Virus record (IMG/VR): IMGVR_UViG_638341084_000023
DNA length: 12,834 nucleotides
Origin: a virus
Lineage: Duplodnaviria; Heunggongvirae; Uroviricota; Caudoviricetes
Direction: 5' to 3' (one strand)
Position numbers and translations under genes: made by a program. This document shows positions 1,040 to 8,112 of this stretch, in pieces; the stretch's first letter is position 1, and each line of letters begins with the position of its first letter. A model generated the notes under the pieces. That model saw only the letters and a list, made by a program, of their open reading frames with translations, did no database searches and was not told the origin of the DNA.

Positions 1040-2341
1040 ATGCCAGACGTTCATGCACAACTTTCTCCATCATCAGCGCATCGATGGATGCGCTGCCCAG
1101 GAAGTCTGGCGCTGGAGGCCACACAACCGGATAAAGAAACAACTTTTGCAATCGAGGGCACTGCAGCGCACGCGCTTGCTGAAAAAGTTCTACGAAACAG
1201 GCAAAGCCACCCGGAACACTACGCCGGATGCAATGTTTCTATGTTTCTCGGCTCATACCCCCTTCGCGAAAATCCTGATGATACATCTGGCCCACAGGTG
1301 GATGATGAAATGGTCGAAGCCGTTGGCCGGTATGTTGATACGGTCTGGACTCTTGCACAGAATAATGAACTATTGGTTGAACAACGTGTTGATTTCTCAC
1401 ATATAACGGGGGTGGAAGAATCTTTCGGAACTGCCGACGGCATAATCATCGCTGGTAACGAATTACAAATCCACGACCTGAAATATGGCAAAGGCGTCCG
1501 CATTGATGCAGAACAAAATGAGCAACTACAACTGTATGCTCTGGGTGCGCTCGAACAATTCAGCATGCTGTATGACTTTGAGACTGTAAGATTATTTATT
1601 CACCAGCCAAGGCTCAACCACGTTTCAGAATGGTCGTTAACCGTACAGGAACTTCAGTCTTTCGGTGAACGGGCACAGGAGGCCGCAACCAGTGCGATCC
1701 TTGTTCTCAATATTGCTGAATGCGAAGGCATTGAGACACTACCGCTGGAAAACTTCATACCTGGAGAAAAACAGTGCCGCTTCTGTAAAGCAAAAGCTAT
1801 TTGCACTGCCCAGAAAATGCAGCATTTACAAACAGCGGCCAGCGATTTTGAAGATCTGACAAAGCCTGTCAGCGAAATAATCACCAATGCCAGCGCACGT
1901 GTACCTCTGTTAACCATTGAGCAGCTTGCGGAGATCTATAGCCAGGCCGACTTTATTGAATCCTGGCTAAAGGCAGTACGGGACCGGGTTCACAATGAAC
2001 TCAATGCCGGACATCCGGTACCGGGGTTTAAACTGGTAACAGGAAAACAAGGTAACCGGGCCTGGAGTGATGAAGAGGCAGCTCGCGCACTTCTGAAGGA
2101 CCAGTTCAGGTACAAAACTGAAGAAGTATTCGACTTTAAACTTATTAGTCCCACAAAAGCCGAAAAACTTATCAAAAAGGCCAGTCCACGCCGTTGGTCA
2201 AAAGTCGAGGCACTGATAACACGAGCTGATGGTAAACCAACCGTCATTCCCGAGTCAGACCCACGCCCCGCACTCAATATCAACCCTGTAAATGATTTCG
2301 ACGACGTATCCGACGATACGCTAACCGCAGACCTCATCTGA
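1040..2341 (+). CDS. PD-(D/E)XK nuclease, DUF2800-type (Cas4/RecB-like phage exonuclease)
   Basis: N-terminal [15 protein letters not shown] is the signature I associate with DUF2800. Nuclease core D...IHDLKYGKG (D/E-x-K). Four cysteines arranged as one N-terminal Cys (RCPGS) plus [10 protein letters not shown] (C-x2-C-x5-C), as in Fe-S cluster Cas4/AddB-type nucleases. Confidence 0.8.
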
Positions 2342-2356
2342 TTTAAGGAAATACCC

Positions 2357-2905
2357 ATGAAACTGAAGCTGAACAATGTTCGTCTGGCCTTCCCGTCTCT
2401 GTTTGAAGCTAAAACTGTAAACGGCGAAGGCGATCCGCGTTTCTCCGCAGTATTTTTAATGTCTCCCAAACACCCACAACTGGAAGAAATCCGTAAAGCT
2501 ATGAAGCAGGTAGCGAAGGAAAAATGGGGAGAGAAGTGGGAGCCCATTTATAACCAGCTGGAGAAAAAACTCAATCTGTGCCTGCATGATGGTGATGAAA
2601 AAGCAGAGTATGAAGGCTTCCCCGGTAATTTCTTCCTGAATGCTGCTAACAAAGCGCGCCCAGCTGTTCTTGATCGCGATCGTTCGCCACTTATTCAGGC
2701 TGACGGACGTCCCTATGCAGGGTGCTATGTAAACGCCGTTATCGATATCTGGGCACAGGACAATAATTTCGGTAAACGCATTAATGCCTCACTCGGCGGA
2801 GTCCAGTTCCTGCGAGACGGCGATGCATTCGCTGGCGGCGGAGTGGCAAGCGCTGACGATTTCGACGATATCAGCGAAGGTGCTGATGCTGAAGCACTAA
2901 TTTAA
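2357..2905 (+). CDS. phage single-strand DNA-binding protein, DUF2815 / T7 gp2.5-like
   Basis: Starts MKLKLNNVRLAFPSLFE, typical of DUF2815. Ends in an acidic tail with aromatic residues (DDFDDISEGADAEALI), as in gp2.5-type SSBs. AAGGAA Shine-Dalgarno about 8 nt upstream. Sits immediately after the DUF2800 gene, the usual gene order. Confidence 0.7.
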   Translation: MKLKLNNVRLAFPSLFEAKTVNGEGDPRFSAVFLMSPKHPQLEEIRKAMKQVAKEKWGEKWEPIYNQLEKKLNLCLHDGDEKAEYEGFPGNFFLNAANKARPAVLDRDRSPLIQADGRPYAGCYVNAVIDIWAQDNNFGKRINASLGGVQFLRDGDAFAGGGVASADDFDDISEGADAEALI

Positions 2906-2920
2906 CCCTACTTCATAGAC

Positions 2921-2939
2921 GCCCGGTTAAACACCGGGC
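2921..2939. terminator. hairpin between convergent genes; possible bidirectional terminator
   Basis: Perfect 7-bp inverted repeat GCCCGGT / ACCGGGC around a 5-nt loop, between the stop of the SSB gene (2903-2905) and the stop of the minus-strand membrane gene (2958-2960). No clean U-tract on either strand, so function is uncertain. Confidence 0.3.
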
Positions 2940-2957
2940 TACTGATTAGGCGTATAA

Positions 2958-3587
2958 TCACTCAGGAATCTTAATCTTTCTCAATTCTTTATTTAGTTCA
3001 CAGATCTTTTTCTTAGACGGGAAAGTATCATACATCCAAAAACCAACAGTCTCTAAAACTATTATCATAACCATATACACAAGATAATTTAAAAGGCCTT
3101 CATTTTGCCCTATGGAAATAATGCAGATAATAGAAAAAAGGGTAAACAGCACAAAACACAGAAAGGAAAACAGACGACTAATAATAAATAAAAAACCTGA
3201 AAAATCAACATTAATAAAAAACACTCCGTTATCTTTCTCTATATAATTCTGAAGCTTAATCAACTGATTTATATACTGTCTTTTTTCTAATCTATTGCAA
3301 ATGTAAATAACATCTCTTCGGTTATAAGATGATTGCAATTTCAGCGCATCACGAATAATTTTATCATTTATTCTTTTTTCTATGGCACTCTTATCCTCCT
3401 CATCCAGATAACGTTCATACTTAACTAAATATAAAATTAACTTCTTAACATATTTAGGCTCTTTATACTTATAATTAAAAATGATCTTTCTTATCCAGAC
3501 TCCCATAACAATCAAACATGAAAAAATATATCCAGCTATTTTCTCCAGATGCTCTGTATGGTCAATCAAGTATTGGATCATATGCAT
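2958..3587 (-). CDS. AT-rich accessory (moron-like) gene; predicted membrane protein of unknown function
   Basis: 209-codon ORF in a region that is visibly much more AT-rich than its flanks, where stop codons would be frequent by chance. Encoded opposite to the surrounding operon. Hydrophobic segments near the N-terminus (IAGYIFSCLIVMGVWI) and two near the C-terminus (FLFIISRLFSFLCFVLFTLFSIICIISIG, LLNYLVYMVMIIVLETVGFWMY), with a K/E/Y-rich soluble middle. Confidence 0.6.
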   Translation of the reverse strand: MHMIQYLIDHTEHLEKIAGYIFSCLIVMGVWIRKIIFNYKYKEPKYVKKLILYLVKYERYLDEEDKSAIEKRINDKIIRDALKLQSSYNRRDVIYICNRLEKRQYINQLIKLQNYIEKDNGVFFINVDFSGFLFIISRLFSFLCFVLFTLFSIICIISIGQNEGLLNYLVYMVMIIVLETVGFWMYDTFPSKKKICELNKELRKIKIPE

Positions 3588-5761: not shown

Positions 5762-6523
5762 ATGCAGGAACTAACTGAAATGCCGATCACCTATCCATAC
5801 CCGAGAGAAACTTTTCCTGACTTTTTGAGGGAGTGTGGGTTCACCAATTTTTCCCACGAACAGCGTGAGACTTGTGACTGCTATCGTTTAACGAATGGCG
5901 TAATTGTTAACCTTTACACCACCCGGACCATTCAGTTTCAAGGTAACCCTCAAGAACGTCCCAATGTTGAAACTGCAATAATGACCCATTTAGGAACGCC
6001 GCCCACGGCAACACCACTAGCCGTAGAACAGCCATCTGAGCTCCCCAAAAAGATATTCATTGTTCACGGCCATGACCATACTGCAAAGGAGCAACTTGAG
6101 CTAATCCTTCATAAACTTGGATTACCAGACCATTTCATTTTGCAGAATACGGGAGGGACTGGACTCACCATTATTGAAGAGCTTGAACGTGAAATTGGGC
6201 AAGGACAAACTGCTACCCGTTTCGGGATTGTTCTTTTGACACCTGATGATATGGGATACTCAAAGCGCGCCGGTGAAGCAGAAATCCAACCCCGCGCAAG
6301 ACAGAACGTTGTACTCGAGATGGGTATGCTTCTTTCGTCCTTAGGGCGCAGCAATGTAGCAATCCTTCAGAAACAGCACCTAGAACAGCCTTCTGATGCT
6401 AACGGGATTTTGTATCTGAATTTCAACGACCATGTACGTGAAACAGTTCCTCGTCTAGTGCAACGGTTACAAAATTCTGGTTTCGAATTTACACAAGCTC
6501 AAATAGCTAACGCTTCCTCGTAA
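5762..6523 (+). CDS. two-domain protein: unknown Cys-containing N-terminal domain (about 95 aa) plus C-terminal TIR-like Rossmann nucleotide-binding domain; candidate defence effector
   Basis: C-terminal domain carries KKIFIVHGHD ... GIVLLTPDDMGY ... RARQNVVLEMGMLLSSLGRSNVAIL ... PSDANGILY. This matches my recollection of the TIR-like domain family (COG4271-type, as in CBASS Cap12 and TIR-STING TIR domains). Own AAAGGAA Shine-Dalgarno, own downstream terminator, and visibly lower GC and different codon choice than neighbours. Not verified by search. Confidence 0.55.
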   Translation: MQELTEMPITYPYPRETFPDFLRECGFTNFSHEQRETCDCYRLTNGVIVNLYTTRTIQFQGNPQERPNVETAIMTHLGTPPTATPLAVEQPSELPKKIFIVHGHDHTAKEQLELILHKLGLPDHFILQNTGGTGLTIIEELEREIGQGQTATRFGIVLLTPDDMGYSKRAGEAEIQPRARQNVVLEMGMLLSSLGRSNVAILQKQHLEQPSDANGILYLNFNDHVRETVPRLVQRLQNSGFEFTQAQIANASS

Positions 6524-6546
6524 TTACCCCTTATTGTTGATTACAA

Positions 6547-6570
6547 CCCTGCATCGCGGGGTTTTTTATT
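6547..6570 (+). terminator. rho-independent terminator after the TIR-like gene
   Basis: GC-rich hairpin CCCTGC-atc-GCGGGG (one G-U pair) directly followed by TTTTTTATTT, about 25 bp after the stop at 6521-6523. Confidence 0.5.
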
Positions 6571-6602
6571 TGGGAATAAAAACCCTATGTCATTTAAATA
6601 CC

Positions 6603-6664
6603 GGGACAGTCCGCTTTATTACCGGACTGTGCGGGAGGCTTTGCACCTTGAACAGTCCGGCGGG
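6603..6664. promoter_or_regulatory. three copies of an ACAGTCCG(G) motif (direct, inverted, direct) in the 234-bp intergenic region; candidate operator or iteron set
   Basis: GGGACAGTCCG at 6603-6613, CCGGACTGT at 6622-6630 (reverse complement) and ACAGTCCGG at 6652-6660. Copies 2 and 3 form a perfect 9-bp inverted repeat separated by 21 bp. Lies upstream of the strong-RBS gene at 6758. Confidence 0.3.
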
Positions 6665-6757
6665 TACGACCGGGCGATGCAGGTCTGGGCCAAAGCGAAC
6701 GTCGGTTTGATTTTTGTCTGATGCAGAACATGCGCGAAAAGCGTAAGGAGGTGGACG

Positions 6758-6952
6758 ATGTCTAATATCGATAATAAGGGTTGGGGGTTCCCCGCTCTGT
6801 CAAAAAAAGCACATTTCTTTAATTCGGGGGAAGCCATATCACTATGCGGAAAATGGATGTTCATAGGTATCAGGATTGATGAATGGCATGACCATCCTGA
6901 GAACTGCGCTATCTGCATGAAGAAACGCAAAAAGCAGGAAGGCGAAAGCTAA
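6758..6952 (+). CDS. small Cys/His-containing protein (possible zinc-ribbon), unknown function
   Basis: Strong AAGGAGGT Shine-Dalgarno 5 nt upstream of the ATG. Residues C30, H44, H46, C51, C54 (CGKW...HDHPENCAIC). Stop overlaps the next ATG (TAATG), suggesting coupling to the VRR-NUC gene. Confidence 0.5.
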   Translation: MSNIDNKGWGFPALSKKAHFFNSGEAISLCGKWMFIGIRIDEWHDHPENCAICMKKRKKQEGES

Positions 6953-7239
6953 TGGCCTATGAACGTGAAAACCTAATCGAAAAGCACCTCGTCGCTGAAG
7001 TAAAAAAGGCTGGCGGGGTTGCCTTTAAGTTCGTATCCCCCGGTCGCCGCTCGGTACCAGATCGCATTGTTCTGCTACCCGGCGGTCGTATCATTTTCGT
7101 TGAATGTAAATCCCCCGGCAAGCCACCACGGCCTGACCAGTTGCGCGAACACGGACGGTTGCGCGCGCTGGGCTTTACCGTAGTGGTGCTGGATAGCAAA
7201 AATCTGGAGGCCATTATTTTAAGCCGCAATAAAGGATAA
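6952..7239 (+). CDS. VRR-NUC domain nuclease (PD-(D/E)XK fold)
   Basis: About 95 aa with VPDRIVLLPGGRIIFVECKSPG (PD...E-x-K) followed by Q...G, the layout of VRR-NUC. This family is classically linked to SNF2 helicases in phages, and one lies downstream. Confidence 0.7.
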   Translation: MAYERENLIEKHLVAEVKKAGGVAFKFVSPGRRSVPDRIVLLPGGRIIFVECKSPGKPPRPDQLREHGRLRALGFTVVVLDSKNLEAIILSRNKG

Positions 7240-7251
7240 AAGACTTATGCT

Positions 7252-8049
7252 TTAATCCGTATTTTTAACACGTATTTCGAAACACCCTTTTAATTTAGCT
7301 ATTTCCTTTTTAGAGGACATGATTGTGAATCTCATCCCTTTTAAATCATTAACAAATTCAAATTTTGCGCTATTTGACTCACAATCACCAACAACAAAAC
7401 CACTACCAAATGAATTGAGCAACACTTTAGTATTACTACCATCTACCATATAATATTCGTTATTTTTAAATGCAGTAACCTTCCCGAATGTATAGCTCAA
7501 TATCAACAACGTTATCACCCCTAAAGGAAAAGCTGACTTTAGGATTTTTAAATCGATATAATAAAATACGTTCTTATACTCTGCAAGCCTCCCAAATTTT
7601 CTAATGCTCTCCATATGATGTTCGTGTCTCTTACTATGGATTGGCATGGACACCACATTGTGATAATTCAACAAAAGCATAGCAAATAATAAAATATCCT
7701 GAACACTCATCACAGAAGTTTCGGAGAAATAACCAAAAGGCCAATGAAATCCTATTATACAAATATTAGCCATTAGCATAACAACTATAAATACAATAAA
7801 TGGAACATAATATTTCCCTTTCAAATCAAACATCAACGCCGCATATAAGGCGCCGAGAAATAAAAAACTAAAAAACAAAAGCCACACAGCCGAATACAAT
7901 AGCGTATTTAAGTCTATTTTAATAAAAAGGTCTGGATAGCCATAATACGATGCAACACCTTTCTGAAAAGAATATGCCATCGCATAAGCTAACGCTGAAA
8001 ACATAGTTAATAAAGAAACTTGCTTTGTAAATATTTTCGCCAGGGGCAT
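7252..8049 (-). CDS. AT-rich accessory (moron-like) gene; polytopic membrane protein with C-terminal soluble domain, unknown function
   Basis: 265-codon ORF in a second strongly AT-rich block, opposite strand to the operon. About five hydrophobic helices in residues 10-190, then a soluble C-terminal region of about 70 aa. GGAGG Shine-Dalgarno 5 nt upstream of the ATG on the minus strand. Confidence 0.6.
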   Translation of the reverse strand: MPLAKIFTKQVSLLTMFSALAYAMAYSFQKGVASYYGYPDLFIKIDLNTLLYSAVWLLFFSFLFLGALYAALMFDLKGKYYVPFIVFIVVMLMANICIIGFHWPFGYFSETSVMSVQDILLFAMLLLNYHNVVSMPIHSKRHEHHMESIRKFGRLAEYKNVFYYIDLKILKSAFPLGVITLLILSYTFGKVTAFKNNEYYMVDGSNTKVLLNSFGSGFVVGDCESNSAKFEFVNDLKGMRFTIMSSKKEIAKLKGCFEIRVKNTD

Positions 8050-8065
8050 ACCCGCCTCCGTTAGT

Positions 8066-8083
8066 TATATATATAGAGAGAGA
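8066..8083. repeat. simple-sequence tract (TA)5(GA)4 in the 63-bp divergent intergenic region
   Basis: tatatatata gagagaga read directly, between the start of the minus-strand membrane gene (8049) and the start of the helicase gene (8113). Confidence 0.6.
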
Positions 8084-8112
8084 AGTGACCATATTCTACC
8101 ATAGGTGTATTA

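What the first reader, a model, noticed from the sequence alone, without database searches (positions are those of the whole stretch)
7240..8112. Second AT-rich opposite-strand cassette (265-aa polytopic membrane protein) splitting the VRR-NUC and SNF2 helicase genes
VRR-NUC and SNF2 helicase genes are normally adjacent or fused in phage replication modules. Here they are separated by an AT-rich block carrying a minus-strand gene for a protein with about five transmembrane helices and a roughly 70-aa soluble C-terminal domain, with a good GGAGG ribosome-binding site. This is a second independent moron-like insertion in the same operon. The two membrane proteins show no obvious similarity to each other.
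Basis: partly seen in the sequence, partly recalled or inferred. Interest (0 to 1): 0.5.

Follow-up and report, generated by a model that had tools for sequence, protein, structure and literature searches.

The report
Prophage hotspot gene for membrane protein
The AT-rich block holds a real gene for an uncharacterised inner-membrane protein, one of many swappable cargo genes (several of them known anti-phage genes) that fill a fixed slot in the replication genes of a widespread enterobacterial prophage, so it is probably a phage-exclusion factor, though that is untested.

Summary
A 265-aa minus-strand ORF (7252-8049, GC 0.33 against about 0.53 in the flanks) lies between VRR-NUC and SNF2 of an E. 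coli prophage integrated at yfhL. It is a real gene: dN/dS is 0.13 against a Raoultella copy. A confident AlphaFold model (pLDDT 88) shows five TM helices plus a beta-rich C-terminal domain. Loop charges place that domain in the periplasm, and it carries two invariant cysteines.

It is not a one-off insertion. The VRR-NUC/SNF2 junction was occupied in every relative examined. It is a recombinational cargo hotspot with fixed boundaries (about 7200-7220 and 8139-8149). In 158 E. coli elements it holds this gene (17), two 19-25%-identical homologues (22 and 6), or unrelated cargo: BstA, PDC-S42, a TIR-like protein, a methyltransferase, DUF6338. Homologues occupy the same slot in Enterobacter, Yersinia and Raoultella, where SNF2 stays 72-96% identical.

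The family is small and uncharacterised. Relatives are labelled Pfam PF27470 'TfpB'. It has no PADLOC or NCBIfam match, only one marginal PHROG hit, and no fold match in PDB or BFVD.

Most likely it is a lysogen-expressed, envelope-acting superinfection-exclusion or anti-phage protein. That function is inferred, not shown. Interest is moderate.

The parts
7252..8049 (-). 265-aa ORF (RefSeq WP_001127515.1, 'hypothetical protein'): a polytopic inner-membrane protein of the PF27470 'TfpB'-labelled family
8055..8059 (-). Shine-Dalgarno GGAGG, 5 nt upstream of the ATG (8049->8047)
   Evidence: read directly from the sequence
8093..8101 (-). Putative extended -10 promoter element TGGTAGAAT. It was read by eye and the consensus scan did not call it, because the -35 is poor. 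The -35 region would overlap SNF2 codons 2-3.
   Evidence: The same or a similar element occurs upstream of homologues in Raoultella (TGGTAGAAT), the P0007 locus (TGATAGAAT), the Enterobacter lambdoid prophage (TGATAAAAT) and Serratia (TATAAT). One search did not list it.
7912..7986 (-). Family signature Y22-D46 (YAMAYSFQKGVASYYGYPDLFIKID): the outer end of TM1 plus periplasmic loop 1. This is the most conserved stretch of the family.
7255..7464 (-). C-terminal domain (residues 196-265): beta strands plus a terminal helix, predicted to be periplasmic
7381..7383 (-). Codon of Cys223, invariant in all 35 sequences of the Cys-pair subfamily
7282..7284 (-). Codon of Cys256, invariant in all 35 sequences of the Cys-pair subfamily and the presumed disulfide partner of Cys223
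7200..8149 (.). Exchangeable cargo block. Flank homology to all sister elements stops at 7199-7220 and resumes at 8139-8149, so the block includes the last ~7-13 codons of VRR-NUC and the first ~9-12 codons and RBS of SNF2.
6952..7239 (+). VRR-NUC nuclease gene: the conserved left flank and recombination arm
8113..9507 (+). SNF2 helicase gene: the conserved right flank and recombination arm

Best explanation
The block is one allele of an exchangeable cargo cassette. It sits in a fixed hotspot between the VRR-NUC and SNF2 genes of a temperate phage type (DUF2800 / Enc34-SSB / PolA / VRR-NUC / SNF2 replication module). In E. coli this phage integrates at yfhL.

Shown or strongly predicted:
- The cassette carries one gene on the strand opposite to the early operon.
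- The product is a 265-aa inner-membrane protein with the N-terminus in the cytoplasm and five TM helices.
- Nearly all of its conserved residues face the periplasm: the TM1/loop-1 signature, and a beta-rich C-terminal domain of about 70 aa with two invariant cysteines.

Inferred:
- The two cysteines form a disulfide.
- The gene has its own extended -10 promoter that overlaps the SNF2 start, so it would be transcribed in the lysogen while the early operon is repressed.
- The protein acts at the envelope to protect the lysogen from other phages. The most likely mechanism is superinfection exclusion that interferes with genome delivery across the inner membrane.
- The periplasmic domain sets specificity, and the deeply divergent alleles are different specificities swapped by recombination in the conserved flanking genes.

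My confidence is about 0.9 for the anatomy and the hotspot, about 0.6 for an anti-phage or competition role, and about 0.4 for entry-blocking exclusion specifically.
For: Real, constrained gene: dN/dS is 0.13 against Raoultella. GC stays at 0.33/0.34 while the flanks shift from 0.54 to 0.60.

Structure and topology: AF2 pLDDT 87.9. Over 35 sequences, mean K+R is 5.7 in the N-terminus, loop 2 and loop 4 combined, against 1.5 in loops 1 and 3 combined. Most conserved positions cluster at the outer end of TM1/loop 1, the outer end of TM5 and the C-domain. C223 and C256 are invariant in 35 of 35 sequences, and both are absent from the distant subfamily.

Hotspot: the breakpoints are the same in 12 sister loci. 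Census of 5,426 complete E. coli genomes: this allele 17; a 236-aa homologue 22; a 243-aa homologue 6; a TIR-like 305-aa protein 24; methyltransferase plus BstA 15 (PADLOC BstA 2.5e-110); BstA alone (1.4e-115); a three-gene set with PDC-S42 17 (4.7e-40); methyltransferase plus a 106-aa gene 20; DUF6338 at least 2.

BstA is an experimentally shown prophage abortive-infection protein (bioRxiv 10.1101/2020.07.13.199331).

Same family, same slot in Raoultella, Enterobacter and Yersinia. Cargo identity is 19-30% while SNF2 is 72-96% identical.

The family also sits at other classic accessory positions: between dinI and the lambda-P gene of a lambdoid prophage, and just upstream of holin-like and endolysin-like genes, with a Q-like gene further upstream.

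-10-like elements lie upstream in all contexts.

Dispensable: the isolated phage vB_EcoM-606R2 lacks it.
Against: - There are no functional data for any family member; all are annotated 'hypothetical'.
- Guilt by association with BstA, TIR and PDC-S42 is suggestive only. Hotspots also carry non-defence cargo, such as the methyltransferase.
- The promoter was read by eye and the consensus scan missed it. No terminator was found.
- The disulfide and the topology are predictions.
- Within one allele lineage (E. coli vs Raoultella) the gene evolves under ordinary purifying selection. The deep divergence between alleles could therefore be ancient rather than an ongoing arms race.
Confidence: 0.45

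Rival explanations
1. It is an abortive-infection or membrane-disrupting effector. A single membrane protein senses infection and depolarises or permeabilises the inner membrane, killing the infected cell, in the manner of RexB-type or other TM effectors.
For: It shares the slot with BstA (Abi) and TIR-like proteins. A polytopic helical bundle could form a pore.
Against: The conserved residues and the folded domain face the periplasm. The only sizeable cytoplasmic loop (136-166) averages about 13 residues across the subfamily and is poorly conserved, which leaves little to sense intracellular phage components. There is no partner sensor gene in the cassette and no PADLOC match.
Confidence: 0.15
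2. It is a lysogenic-conversion or fitness factor unrelated to phage defence. Examples would be envelope modification, immunity to a bacteriocin or contact-dependent toxin, or a pilus-related accessory role, as the Pfam label 'TfpB' might suggest.
For: Prophage morons include many non-defence membrane proteins. Homologues carry the Pfam label PF27470 'TfpB'. Extreme allelic diversity is also typical of toxin-immunity proteins.
Against: No residues typical of catalysis are invariant. Only Y22 and the two cysteines are invariant in the subfamily, and across the whole family only Y22, G31 and G189 are nearly invariant. No pilin, toxin or glycosyltransferase gene neighbours the gene in about 20 loci. 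TfpY/FimB-type pilin accessory proteins are described with three TM helices (PMC11841053), not five.
Confidence: 0.15
3. It has a core phage life-cycle function, for example anchoring the replication complex to the membrane or controlling lysis timing. On this view it sits in the replication module because replication needs it.
For: It sits inside the replication module, and the family has been tied to this junction across genera for a long time.
Against: Unrelated genes replace it in more than 70% of E. coli elements, and in the isolated, presumably viable phage vB_EcoM-606R2. It is on the opposite strand, is AT-rich and appears to have its own promoter. Family members also occur outside replication modules.
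Confidence: 0.05
4. It is a spurious ORF: an AT-rich spacer that happens to be open.
For: There is no functional annotation, and AT-rich DNA contains few GC-rich stop contexts.
Against: dN/dS is 0.13. Full-length homologues span 57-92% identity, and a family of 72 clusters exists. The AF2 model is confident. There is an RBS.
Confidence: 0.02

Closest known systems
Pfam PF27470 'TfpB' (a family added after the local Pfam copy was made; function unknown to me)
   Same: Homologues at 57-85% identity (P0002, P0005, P0006, P0007) and more distant same-slot homologues (P0009, P0097) carry precomputed PF27470 hits. By transitive homology the window protein belongs to the same family.
   Different: The cluster representative closest to the window protein (P0001) has no hit on record, and some hits are only 'weak' or 'faint'. 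I could not trace the origin of the name. I recall tfpB as an ORF in the Moraxella pilin inversion region, but that is unverified. No member seen here lies next to pilin genes, and no characterised member was found.
Prophage superinfection-exclusion membrane proteins (P22 SieA, HK97 gp15, T4 Imm), named from general knowledge
   Same: It is a prophage-borne accessory gene and a predicted inner-membrane protein whose conserved parts face the periplasm. It is dispensable for the phage and has moron-like composition and orientation.
   Different: There is no detectable sequence or fold similarity. It is larger (five TM helices plus a folded domain). No phenotype is known.
BstA, the prophage abortive-infection protein (Owen et al., bioRxiv 10.1101/2020.07.13.199331)
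   Same: It occupies exactly the same VRR-NUC/SNF2 slot, mostly on the same (minus) strand, in sister prophages.
   Different: The proteins are unrelated. BstA is soluble, has an HTH and acts in the cytoplasm on replication.
TfpY/TfpZ/FimB-like type IV pilin accessory proteins (PMC11841053)
   Same: Similar size (230-265 aa), a short cytoplasmic N-terminus, N-terminal TM helices and a periplasmic C-terminal globular domain with beta strands.
   Different: Those proteins are described with three TM helices and lie next to pilin genes. Ours has five TM helices and lies in prophages. The paper does not mention TfpB. Homology was not tested because no sequences were available here.
Phage accessory-region and defence hotspots (P2/P4 hotspots; accessory regions between conserved phage genes, bioRxiv 10.1101/2023.04.06.535777)
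   Same: Conserved flanking genes, and a variable AT-rich cargo that includes known defence genes and is exchanged between closely related elements.
   Different: This hotspot, inside a PolA-type replication module between VRR-NUC and SNF2, was not found described in the searched literature.

Membership tests
Pfam PF27470 (TfpB) | Significant match of the protein itself to the PF27470 HMM | not testable with these tools
   The local Pfam-A copy lacks PF27470, so the window protein gets 0 families. Only precomputed labels on relatives are available.
Pfam PF27470 (TfpB) | Full-length homology to proteins that carry the PF27470 label | tested here: met
   phmmer E-values of 1e-93 to 1e-143 to P0002, P0003, P0005, P0006 and P0007, all labelled PF27470. 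Profile hits also reach P0009 and the P0021/P0097 cluster, whose members P0009 and P0097 carry the label.
Moron (Hendrix-type: an independent transcription unit inserted between genes that are adjacent in related phages) | Base composition differs from the surrounding phage genes | tested here: met
   GC is 0.33 against 0.53-0.54 in the flanks.
Moron (Hendrix-type: an independent transcription unit inserted between genes that are adjacent in related phages) | Own promoter and own terminator | tested here: inconclusive
   An extended -10-like element is conserved upstream in several contexts, but the consensus scan did not call it. No terminator lies downstream in the window; a hairpin is present only in the Enterobacter lambdoid context.
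Moron (Hendrix-type: an independent transcription unit inserted between genes that are adjacent in related phages) | The flanking genes are directly adjacent in close relatives that lack the insert | tested here: not met
   Every one of about 20 related loci has cargo in the slot. Lytic Dhillonvirus has two small ORFs there.
Known anti-phage defence systems (PADLOC-DB v2) | HMM match to a catalogued defence protein | tested here: not met
   0 families at E <= 1 for the window protein, and 0 for the L004 homologue.
Superinfection-exclusion proteins (functional class) | Inner-membrane or periplasm-facing localisation | tested here: inconclusive
   Prediction only: five TM helices and a positive-inside charge bias giving N-in, C-out. 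There is no experimental localisation.
Superinfection-exclusion proteins (functional class) | Blocks infection after adsorption and before or at DNA entry, without killing the cell | not testable with these tools
   This needs phage challenge, adsorption and DNA-entry assays.
Superinfection-exclusion proteins (functional class) | Homology to a characterised Sie protein | tested here: not met
   PHROGs gives only phrog_35408 (unknown function, E 0.029). There is no BFVD or PDB fold match.
TfpY/FimB-like pilin accessory proteins | Three TM helices, and a gene adjacent to a major pilin gene | tested here: not met
   Five TM helices are predicted. There are no pilin genes in any neighbourhood examined. 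The family description comes from PMC11841053.

The most novel reading that the evidence does not exclude
The PF27470/'TfpB'-like proteins are a previously unrecognised family of envelope-acting superinfection-exclusion proteins. A periplasmic, disulfide-stabilised C-terminal domain sets which incoming phages are excluded. Enterobacterial PolA-type temperate phages keep at least five deeply divergent specificity alleles (19-30% identity), which they swap by recombination within the 92-96%-identical VRR-NUC and SNF2 genes. This would be an immunity-type polymorphism at a fixed defence slot that also trades in BstA, PDC-S42 and TIR genes.
Probability: 0.3. Interest if true: 0.6.

Novelty: new member of a known kind. 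Interest (0 to 1): 0.45.

Why it matters
If the inference holds, this is a compact single-gene exclusion factor with no relative among characterised defence proteins. The natural series of highly divergent alleles in near-identical phage backgrounds would serve as a ready-made specificity-swap experiment.

The analysis also defines a cargo hotspot that I did not find described in the literature I searched. The hotspot lies inside the replication module of a prophage type present in about 3% of complete E. coli genomes, and also in Enterobacter, Yersinia and Raoultella. It already holds validated (BstA) and candidate (PDC-S42, PDC-S35 TIR) defence genes. Its uncharacterised tenants (this family, DUF6338, the 305-aa TIR-like protein and several small ORFs) are therefore good candidates for finding new defence genes.

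Conceptually it fits the established picture of prophage accessory hotspots, so it is useful rather than surprising.

Tried and rejected
1. Family scans. Pfam, PADLOC and NCBIfam gave no match for the protein, and PHROGs gave only a marginal hit.

2. First AF2 run. The 8-sequence alignment gave pLDDT 47 and was discarded. The 64-sequence alignment was used instead.

4. Origin of the name 'TfpB'. Three literature searches and one guessed PubMed id failed. Thirty cluster look-ups found only 'hypothetical protein' entries and no Moraxella member.

5. Locus scans. The search for related loci failed on the diverse alignments because no stretch was conserved enough. With the tighter alignment it found no close relative among GTDB species representatives.

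6. MY ERROR. The back-translated signature used (genome contigs; viral contigs) had one N too many and does not match even the window. Those two 'zero hits' are meaningless, and the last genome-contig scan was wasted. The corrected pattern (verified) was rerun only on viral contigs.

7. Possible relationships. Homology to DUF6338 (same slot) or to the first cassette's 209-aa protein was rejected by hhalign.

8. Transposon-like insertion. Rejected: there are no flanking repeats.

9. tblastn against 50,697 phage records found no match for the protein.

10. An early reading of the -10 coordinates (8092-8084 in my notes) was a ruler misreading. The correct position is 8101-8093.

Full report
WHAT IS THERE

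The window is part of an E. coli prophage integrated next to yfhL. It is 100% identical over 6700-8700 to strain FDAARGOS_1059. The early rightward operon encodes:
- a 300-aa protein;
- DUF2800, a PD-(D/E)XK nuclease;
- a DUF2815/Enc34-type SSB;
- PolA;
- a CAP12-type TIR protein;
- a frameshifted ANR regulator;
- a 64-aa protein;
- VRR-NUC (6952-7239);
- SNF2 (8113-9507);
- an HTH protein.

A 265-aa ORF lies on the minus strand between VRR-NUC and SNF2 (7252-8049). Its stop codon is 12 nt from the VRR-NUC stop, and its ATG is 63 nt from the SNF2 ATG. GC falls to 0.32-0.36 across 7201-8100, against 0.52-0.58 in the flanks. GGAGG lies 5 nt upstream of the ATG.

IT IS A REAL, CONSTRAINED GENE

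Seven close homologues (57-92% identity) exist in E. coli, Raoultella, Enterobacter and metagenomes. Against the syntenic Raoultella copy, dN/dS is 0.13. That is the same order as SNF2 (0.05), VRR-NUC (0.09), TIR (0.10) and PolA (0.06). The gene keeps 0.33/0.34 GC in both hosts, while its neighbours move from 0.54 to 0.60.

THE PROTEIN

A first AlphaFold run on 8 sequences was poor (pLDDT 47). An exhaustive profile search of 1.84 billion cluster representatives found only 72 family members at E <= 1e-3. With 64 of them as the alignment, the model became confident (pLDDT 87.9, pTM 0.84).

The model has five long helices (13-36, 47-76, 81-99, 116-152, 167-195). After them comes a beta-rich domain (strands within 200-243), capped by a C-terminal helix (247-263).

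Across the 35 sequences of the nearer subfamily, the N-terminus, loop 2 and loop 4 together carry 5.7 K+R on average. Loops 1 and 3 together carry 1.5. By the positive-inside rule this gives an N-in, C-out topology.

Most strongly conserved positions fall in three places:
- the outer end of TM1 and loop 1 (Y22, Y26, Q29, G31, G37, Y38, P39, F42, I43, D46);
- the outer end of TM5 (G189, A193);
- the C-terminal domain (L210, S213, G221, C223, F230, K254, C256, F257).

C223 and C256 are invariant in 35 of 35 sequences. Both are absent from the more distant subfamily, which also lacks the terminal helix. A both-or-neither cysteine pair in a predicted periplasmic domain is best read as a disulfide. 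That is an inference: I could not measure the distance in the model. No residue typical of catalysis is conserved across the family.

NO KNOWN RELATIVE

- Pfam (local copy), PADLOC and NCBIfam give nothing. PHROGs gives only a marginal hit to a family of unknown function.
- tblastn against 50,697 phage records finds nothing.
- Relatives do carry a precomputed label from a newer Pfam release, PF27470 'TfpB'. I could not trace that name. Thirty cluster look-ups returned only 'hypothetical protein', from Serratia, Yersinia, Enterobacter, Pantoea, Lelliottia and Izhakiella for the Cys-pair subfamily, and from the Bacillus cereus group and metagenomes for the distant subfamily.
- The pilin-accessory proteins TfpY/TfpZ/FimB are described with three TM helices and lie next to pilin genes (PMC11841053). 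Neither is true here.

THE JUNCTION IS A STANDING CARGO HOTSPOT, NOT A ONE-OFF INSERTION

Of 5,426 complete E. coli genomes, 158 carry the flanking genes. Only 17 carry this cassette. In 12 sister loci, homology to the window ends at 7199-7220, inside the last codons of VRR-NUC. It resumes at 8139-8149, about 9-12 codons into SNF2. There are no flanking repeats. The block is therefore exchanged by homologous recombination within the two conserved genes, and each cassette brings its own VRR-NUC tail, SNF2 head and RBS.

Census of slot contents (complete E. coli genomes):

| Cargo | Genomes |
|---|---|
| This allele (265 aa) | 17 |
| 236-aa protein | 22 |
| 243-aa protein | 6 |
| 305-aa plus-strand protein with a weak TIR-effector match (1e-6) | 24 |
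| Cytosine methyltransferase plus BstA (2.5e-110) | 15 |
| BstA alone (1.4e-115) | seen, not counted |
| Three-gene set including PDC-S42 (4.7e-40) | 17 |
| Methyltransferase plus a 106-aa gene | 20 |
| DUF6338 plus an 86-aa gene | at least 2 |

About 35 elements were not classified. None of about 20 loci inspected has an empty junction. BstA is an experimentally validated prophage abortive-infection protein (bioRxiv 10.1101/2020.07.13.199331).

The isolated phage vB_EcoM-606R2 has a 97.8%-identical SNF2 and is of this phage type. It carries the 305-aa-type cargo rather than this gene. So the gene is dispensable for the phage.

THE KEY TWIST

The 236-aa and 243-aa tenants are full-length homologues of the 265-aa protein. 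They share 21-26% identity (blastp E 1e-7 to 1e-14 in a small database), the minus strand, GC of 0.34-0.38, five TM helices and the G-x-C ... C-F/L motif.

The same family fills the same slot in three other genera: Raoultella (84% identical), the Enterobacter cloacae complex (23%, and the most abundant cluster) and Yersinia (28%). In those genera the phage uses other integrases and attachment sites.

Between these elements SNF2 is 92-96% identical (72-74% for Yersinia), while the cargo homologues are 19-30% identical to one another. Together the three alleles make this family the commonest tenant in E. coli, 45 of 158. It is evidently an old resident of the slot, held as several deeply divergent alleles.

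Within one allele lineage evolution is ordinary. The divergence is therefore between old alleles, not demonstrably ongoing.

Family members also occur at other classic accessory positions:
- between dinI and the lambda-P replication gene of an Enterobacter lambdoid prophage, on the opposite strand;
- directly upstream of holin-like and endolysin-like genes in IMG/VR contigs, with a Q-like gene and two other accessory-looking genes further upstream;
- in decayed prophage remnants;
- as a lone gene after proBA in Serratia, which is the site the Enterobacter prophage uses;
- for a weak, Cys-less member, between a late regulator and the terminase of a gut siphophage.

EXPRESSION

The consensus scan did not call a promoter upstream. 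By eye, the minus strand has TGGTAGAAT at 8101->8093, which reads as an extended -10 element. Equivalent elements lie 30-45 nt upstream of the ATG in four other contexts, including unrelated phage backgrounds.

In the window the -35 region of this putative promoter overlaps SNF2 codons 2-3. I infer that the gene is transcribed in the lysogen, and that rightward early transcription opposes it after induction. No terminator follows the gene. No Rfam family or tRNA is present.

HOW IT MOST LIKELY WORKS

The evidence to weigh:
- a lysogen-expressed inner-membrane protein whose conserved surface faces the periplasm;
- dispensable for the phage;
- held as highly divergent alleles;
- sharing a slot with validated and candidate anti-phage genes.

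The best-supported reading is an envelope-acting anti-phage protein. Most likely it causes superinfection exclusion by interfering with genome delivery across the inner membrane. I put this at about 0.4, and about 0.6 for any anti-phage or competition role.

Rivals:
- a single-protein abortive-infection membrane effector (0.15). This is disfavoured because the cytoplasmic parts are short and unconserved;
- a non-defence lysogenic-conversion or immunity function (0.15);
- a core life-cycle role (0.05). This is contradicted by frequent replacement;
- a spurious ORF (0.02).

None of these is tested experimentally.

The description is correct, and 'moron-like accessory cassette' is a fair label. 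'Second independent insertion splitting normally adjacent genes' is not the right history. This is one allele at a permanent, always-occupied recombinational hotspot, and relatives of the same protein are its usual tenant.

The window's other two odd genes also sit in variable slots. The 209-aa membrane protein lies between SSB and PolA, and the TIR protein lies after PolA. The whole replication module is therefore interleaved with cargo positions.

NOVELTY AND LIMITS

Prophage accessory and defence hotspots are well known. I did not find this particular hotspot or this protein family described in the literature I searched. I rate it a new member of a known kind, of moderate interest.

Limits:
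- there are no functional data;
- the Pfam family description was unavailable;
- one of my own scans was wasted on a mistyped pattern. The taxonomic spread among species-representative genomes therefore rests only.

Noticed in passing
window 5762-6523 (+): The TIR-domain protein matches Pfam CAP12-PCTIR_TIR (2.9e-31) and the PADLOC candidate defence family PDC-S35 (6.8e-109). It sits in a second variable slot after PolA. It is absent from L004, L005 and L027-L030, is replaced by a 169-aa gene plus a YfbU-family gene in O55:H7 CB9615 (L006), and is present in Raoultella and in phage vB_EcoM-606R2.
   Followed up: partly
window 2958-3587 (-): The first AT-rich cassette (GC 0.29) encodes a 209-aa membrane protein that matches phrog_10579 (2.9e-108, unknown function). 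It is unrelated to the 265-aa protein. The same SSB/PolA slot holds different opposite-strand genes elsewhere: 164 aa in Raoultella (L016), 174 aa in Enterobacter (L047/L048) and 229 aa in Yersinia (L049). This is a third cargo position.
   Followed up: partly
window 9701-12365: The prophage integrase is split into two parts (9701-9949 and 11199-12365). Between them lie two overlapping minus-strand ORFs (9990-10856 and 10853-11161) that look like an IS3-family orfB/orfA pair. In FDAARGOS_1059 (L001) the integrase is an intact 1398-nt gene. The window's prophage is therefore probably unable to excise. The IS identity was judged by eye, not scanned.
   Followed up: partly
window 7200-7239 and 8113-8149: The exchangeable block includes the last codons of VRR-NUC and the first ~9-12 codons plus the RBS of SNF2. 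Each cargo cassette therefore supplies its own variant termini for the two conserved enzymes.
   Followed up: partly
L027 (ETEC H10407) 1418-3363; L029 2079-3424: In many E. coli elements a DNA cytosine methyltransferase gene overlaps the end of VRR-NUC. A convergent BstA gene or a 106-aa gene follows it. Whether the methyltransferase is a self-protection partner of BstA or an independent anti-restriction gene was not examined. In H10407 PolA is frameshifted and SNF2 has an internal stop, so that prophage is decaying.
   Followed up: no
L024 (phage vB_EcoM-606R2) 11366-12287: In the isolated phage, the 305-aa TIR-like cargo seen intact in L002 is annotated as two ORFs (163 and 103 aa). That suggests a frameshift or a sequencing error.
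   Followed up: no
L022/L023 7185-7889: A decayed relative of the phage carries, besides a family member at the SNF2 junction, another opposite-strand 234-aa gene with no Pfam hit next to the TIR gene.
   Followed up: no
window 6534-6760: The ANR-family regulator upstream of VRR-NUC is annotated as frameshifted in this and several sister prophages, but it is intact in others (L004, L005, L007, L008).
   Followed up: no
L050 vs L049 (Yersinia): Near-identical copies of the same Yersinia prophage are integrated at two different chromosomal sites with different integrases: next to a yfhL-like ferredoxin gene, and next to aroC/mepA. Integration modules are therefore swapped as readily as the cargo.
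   Followed up: no
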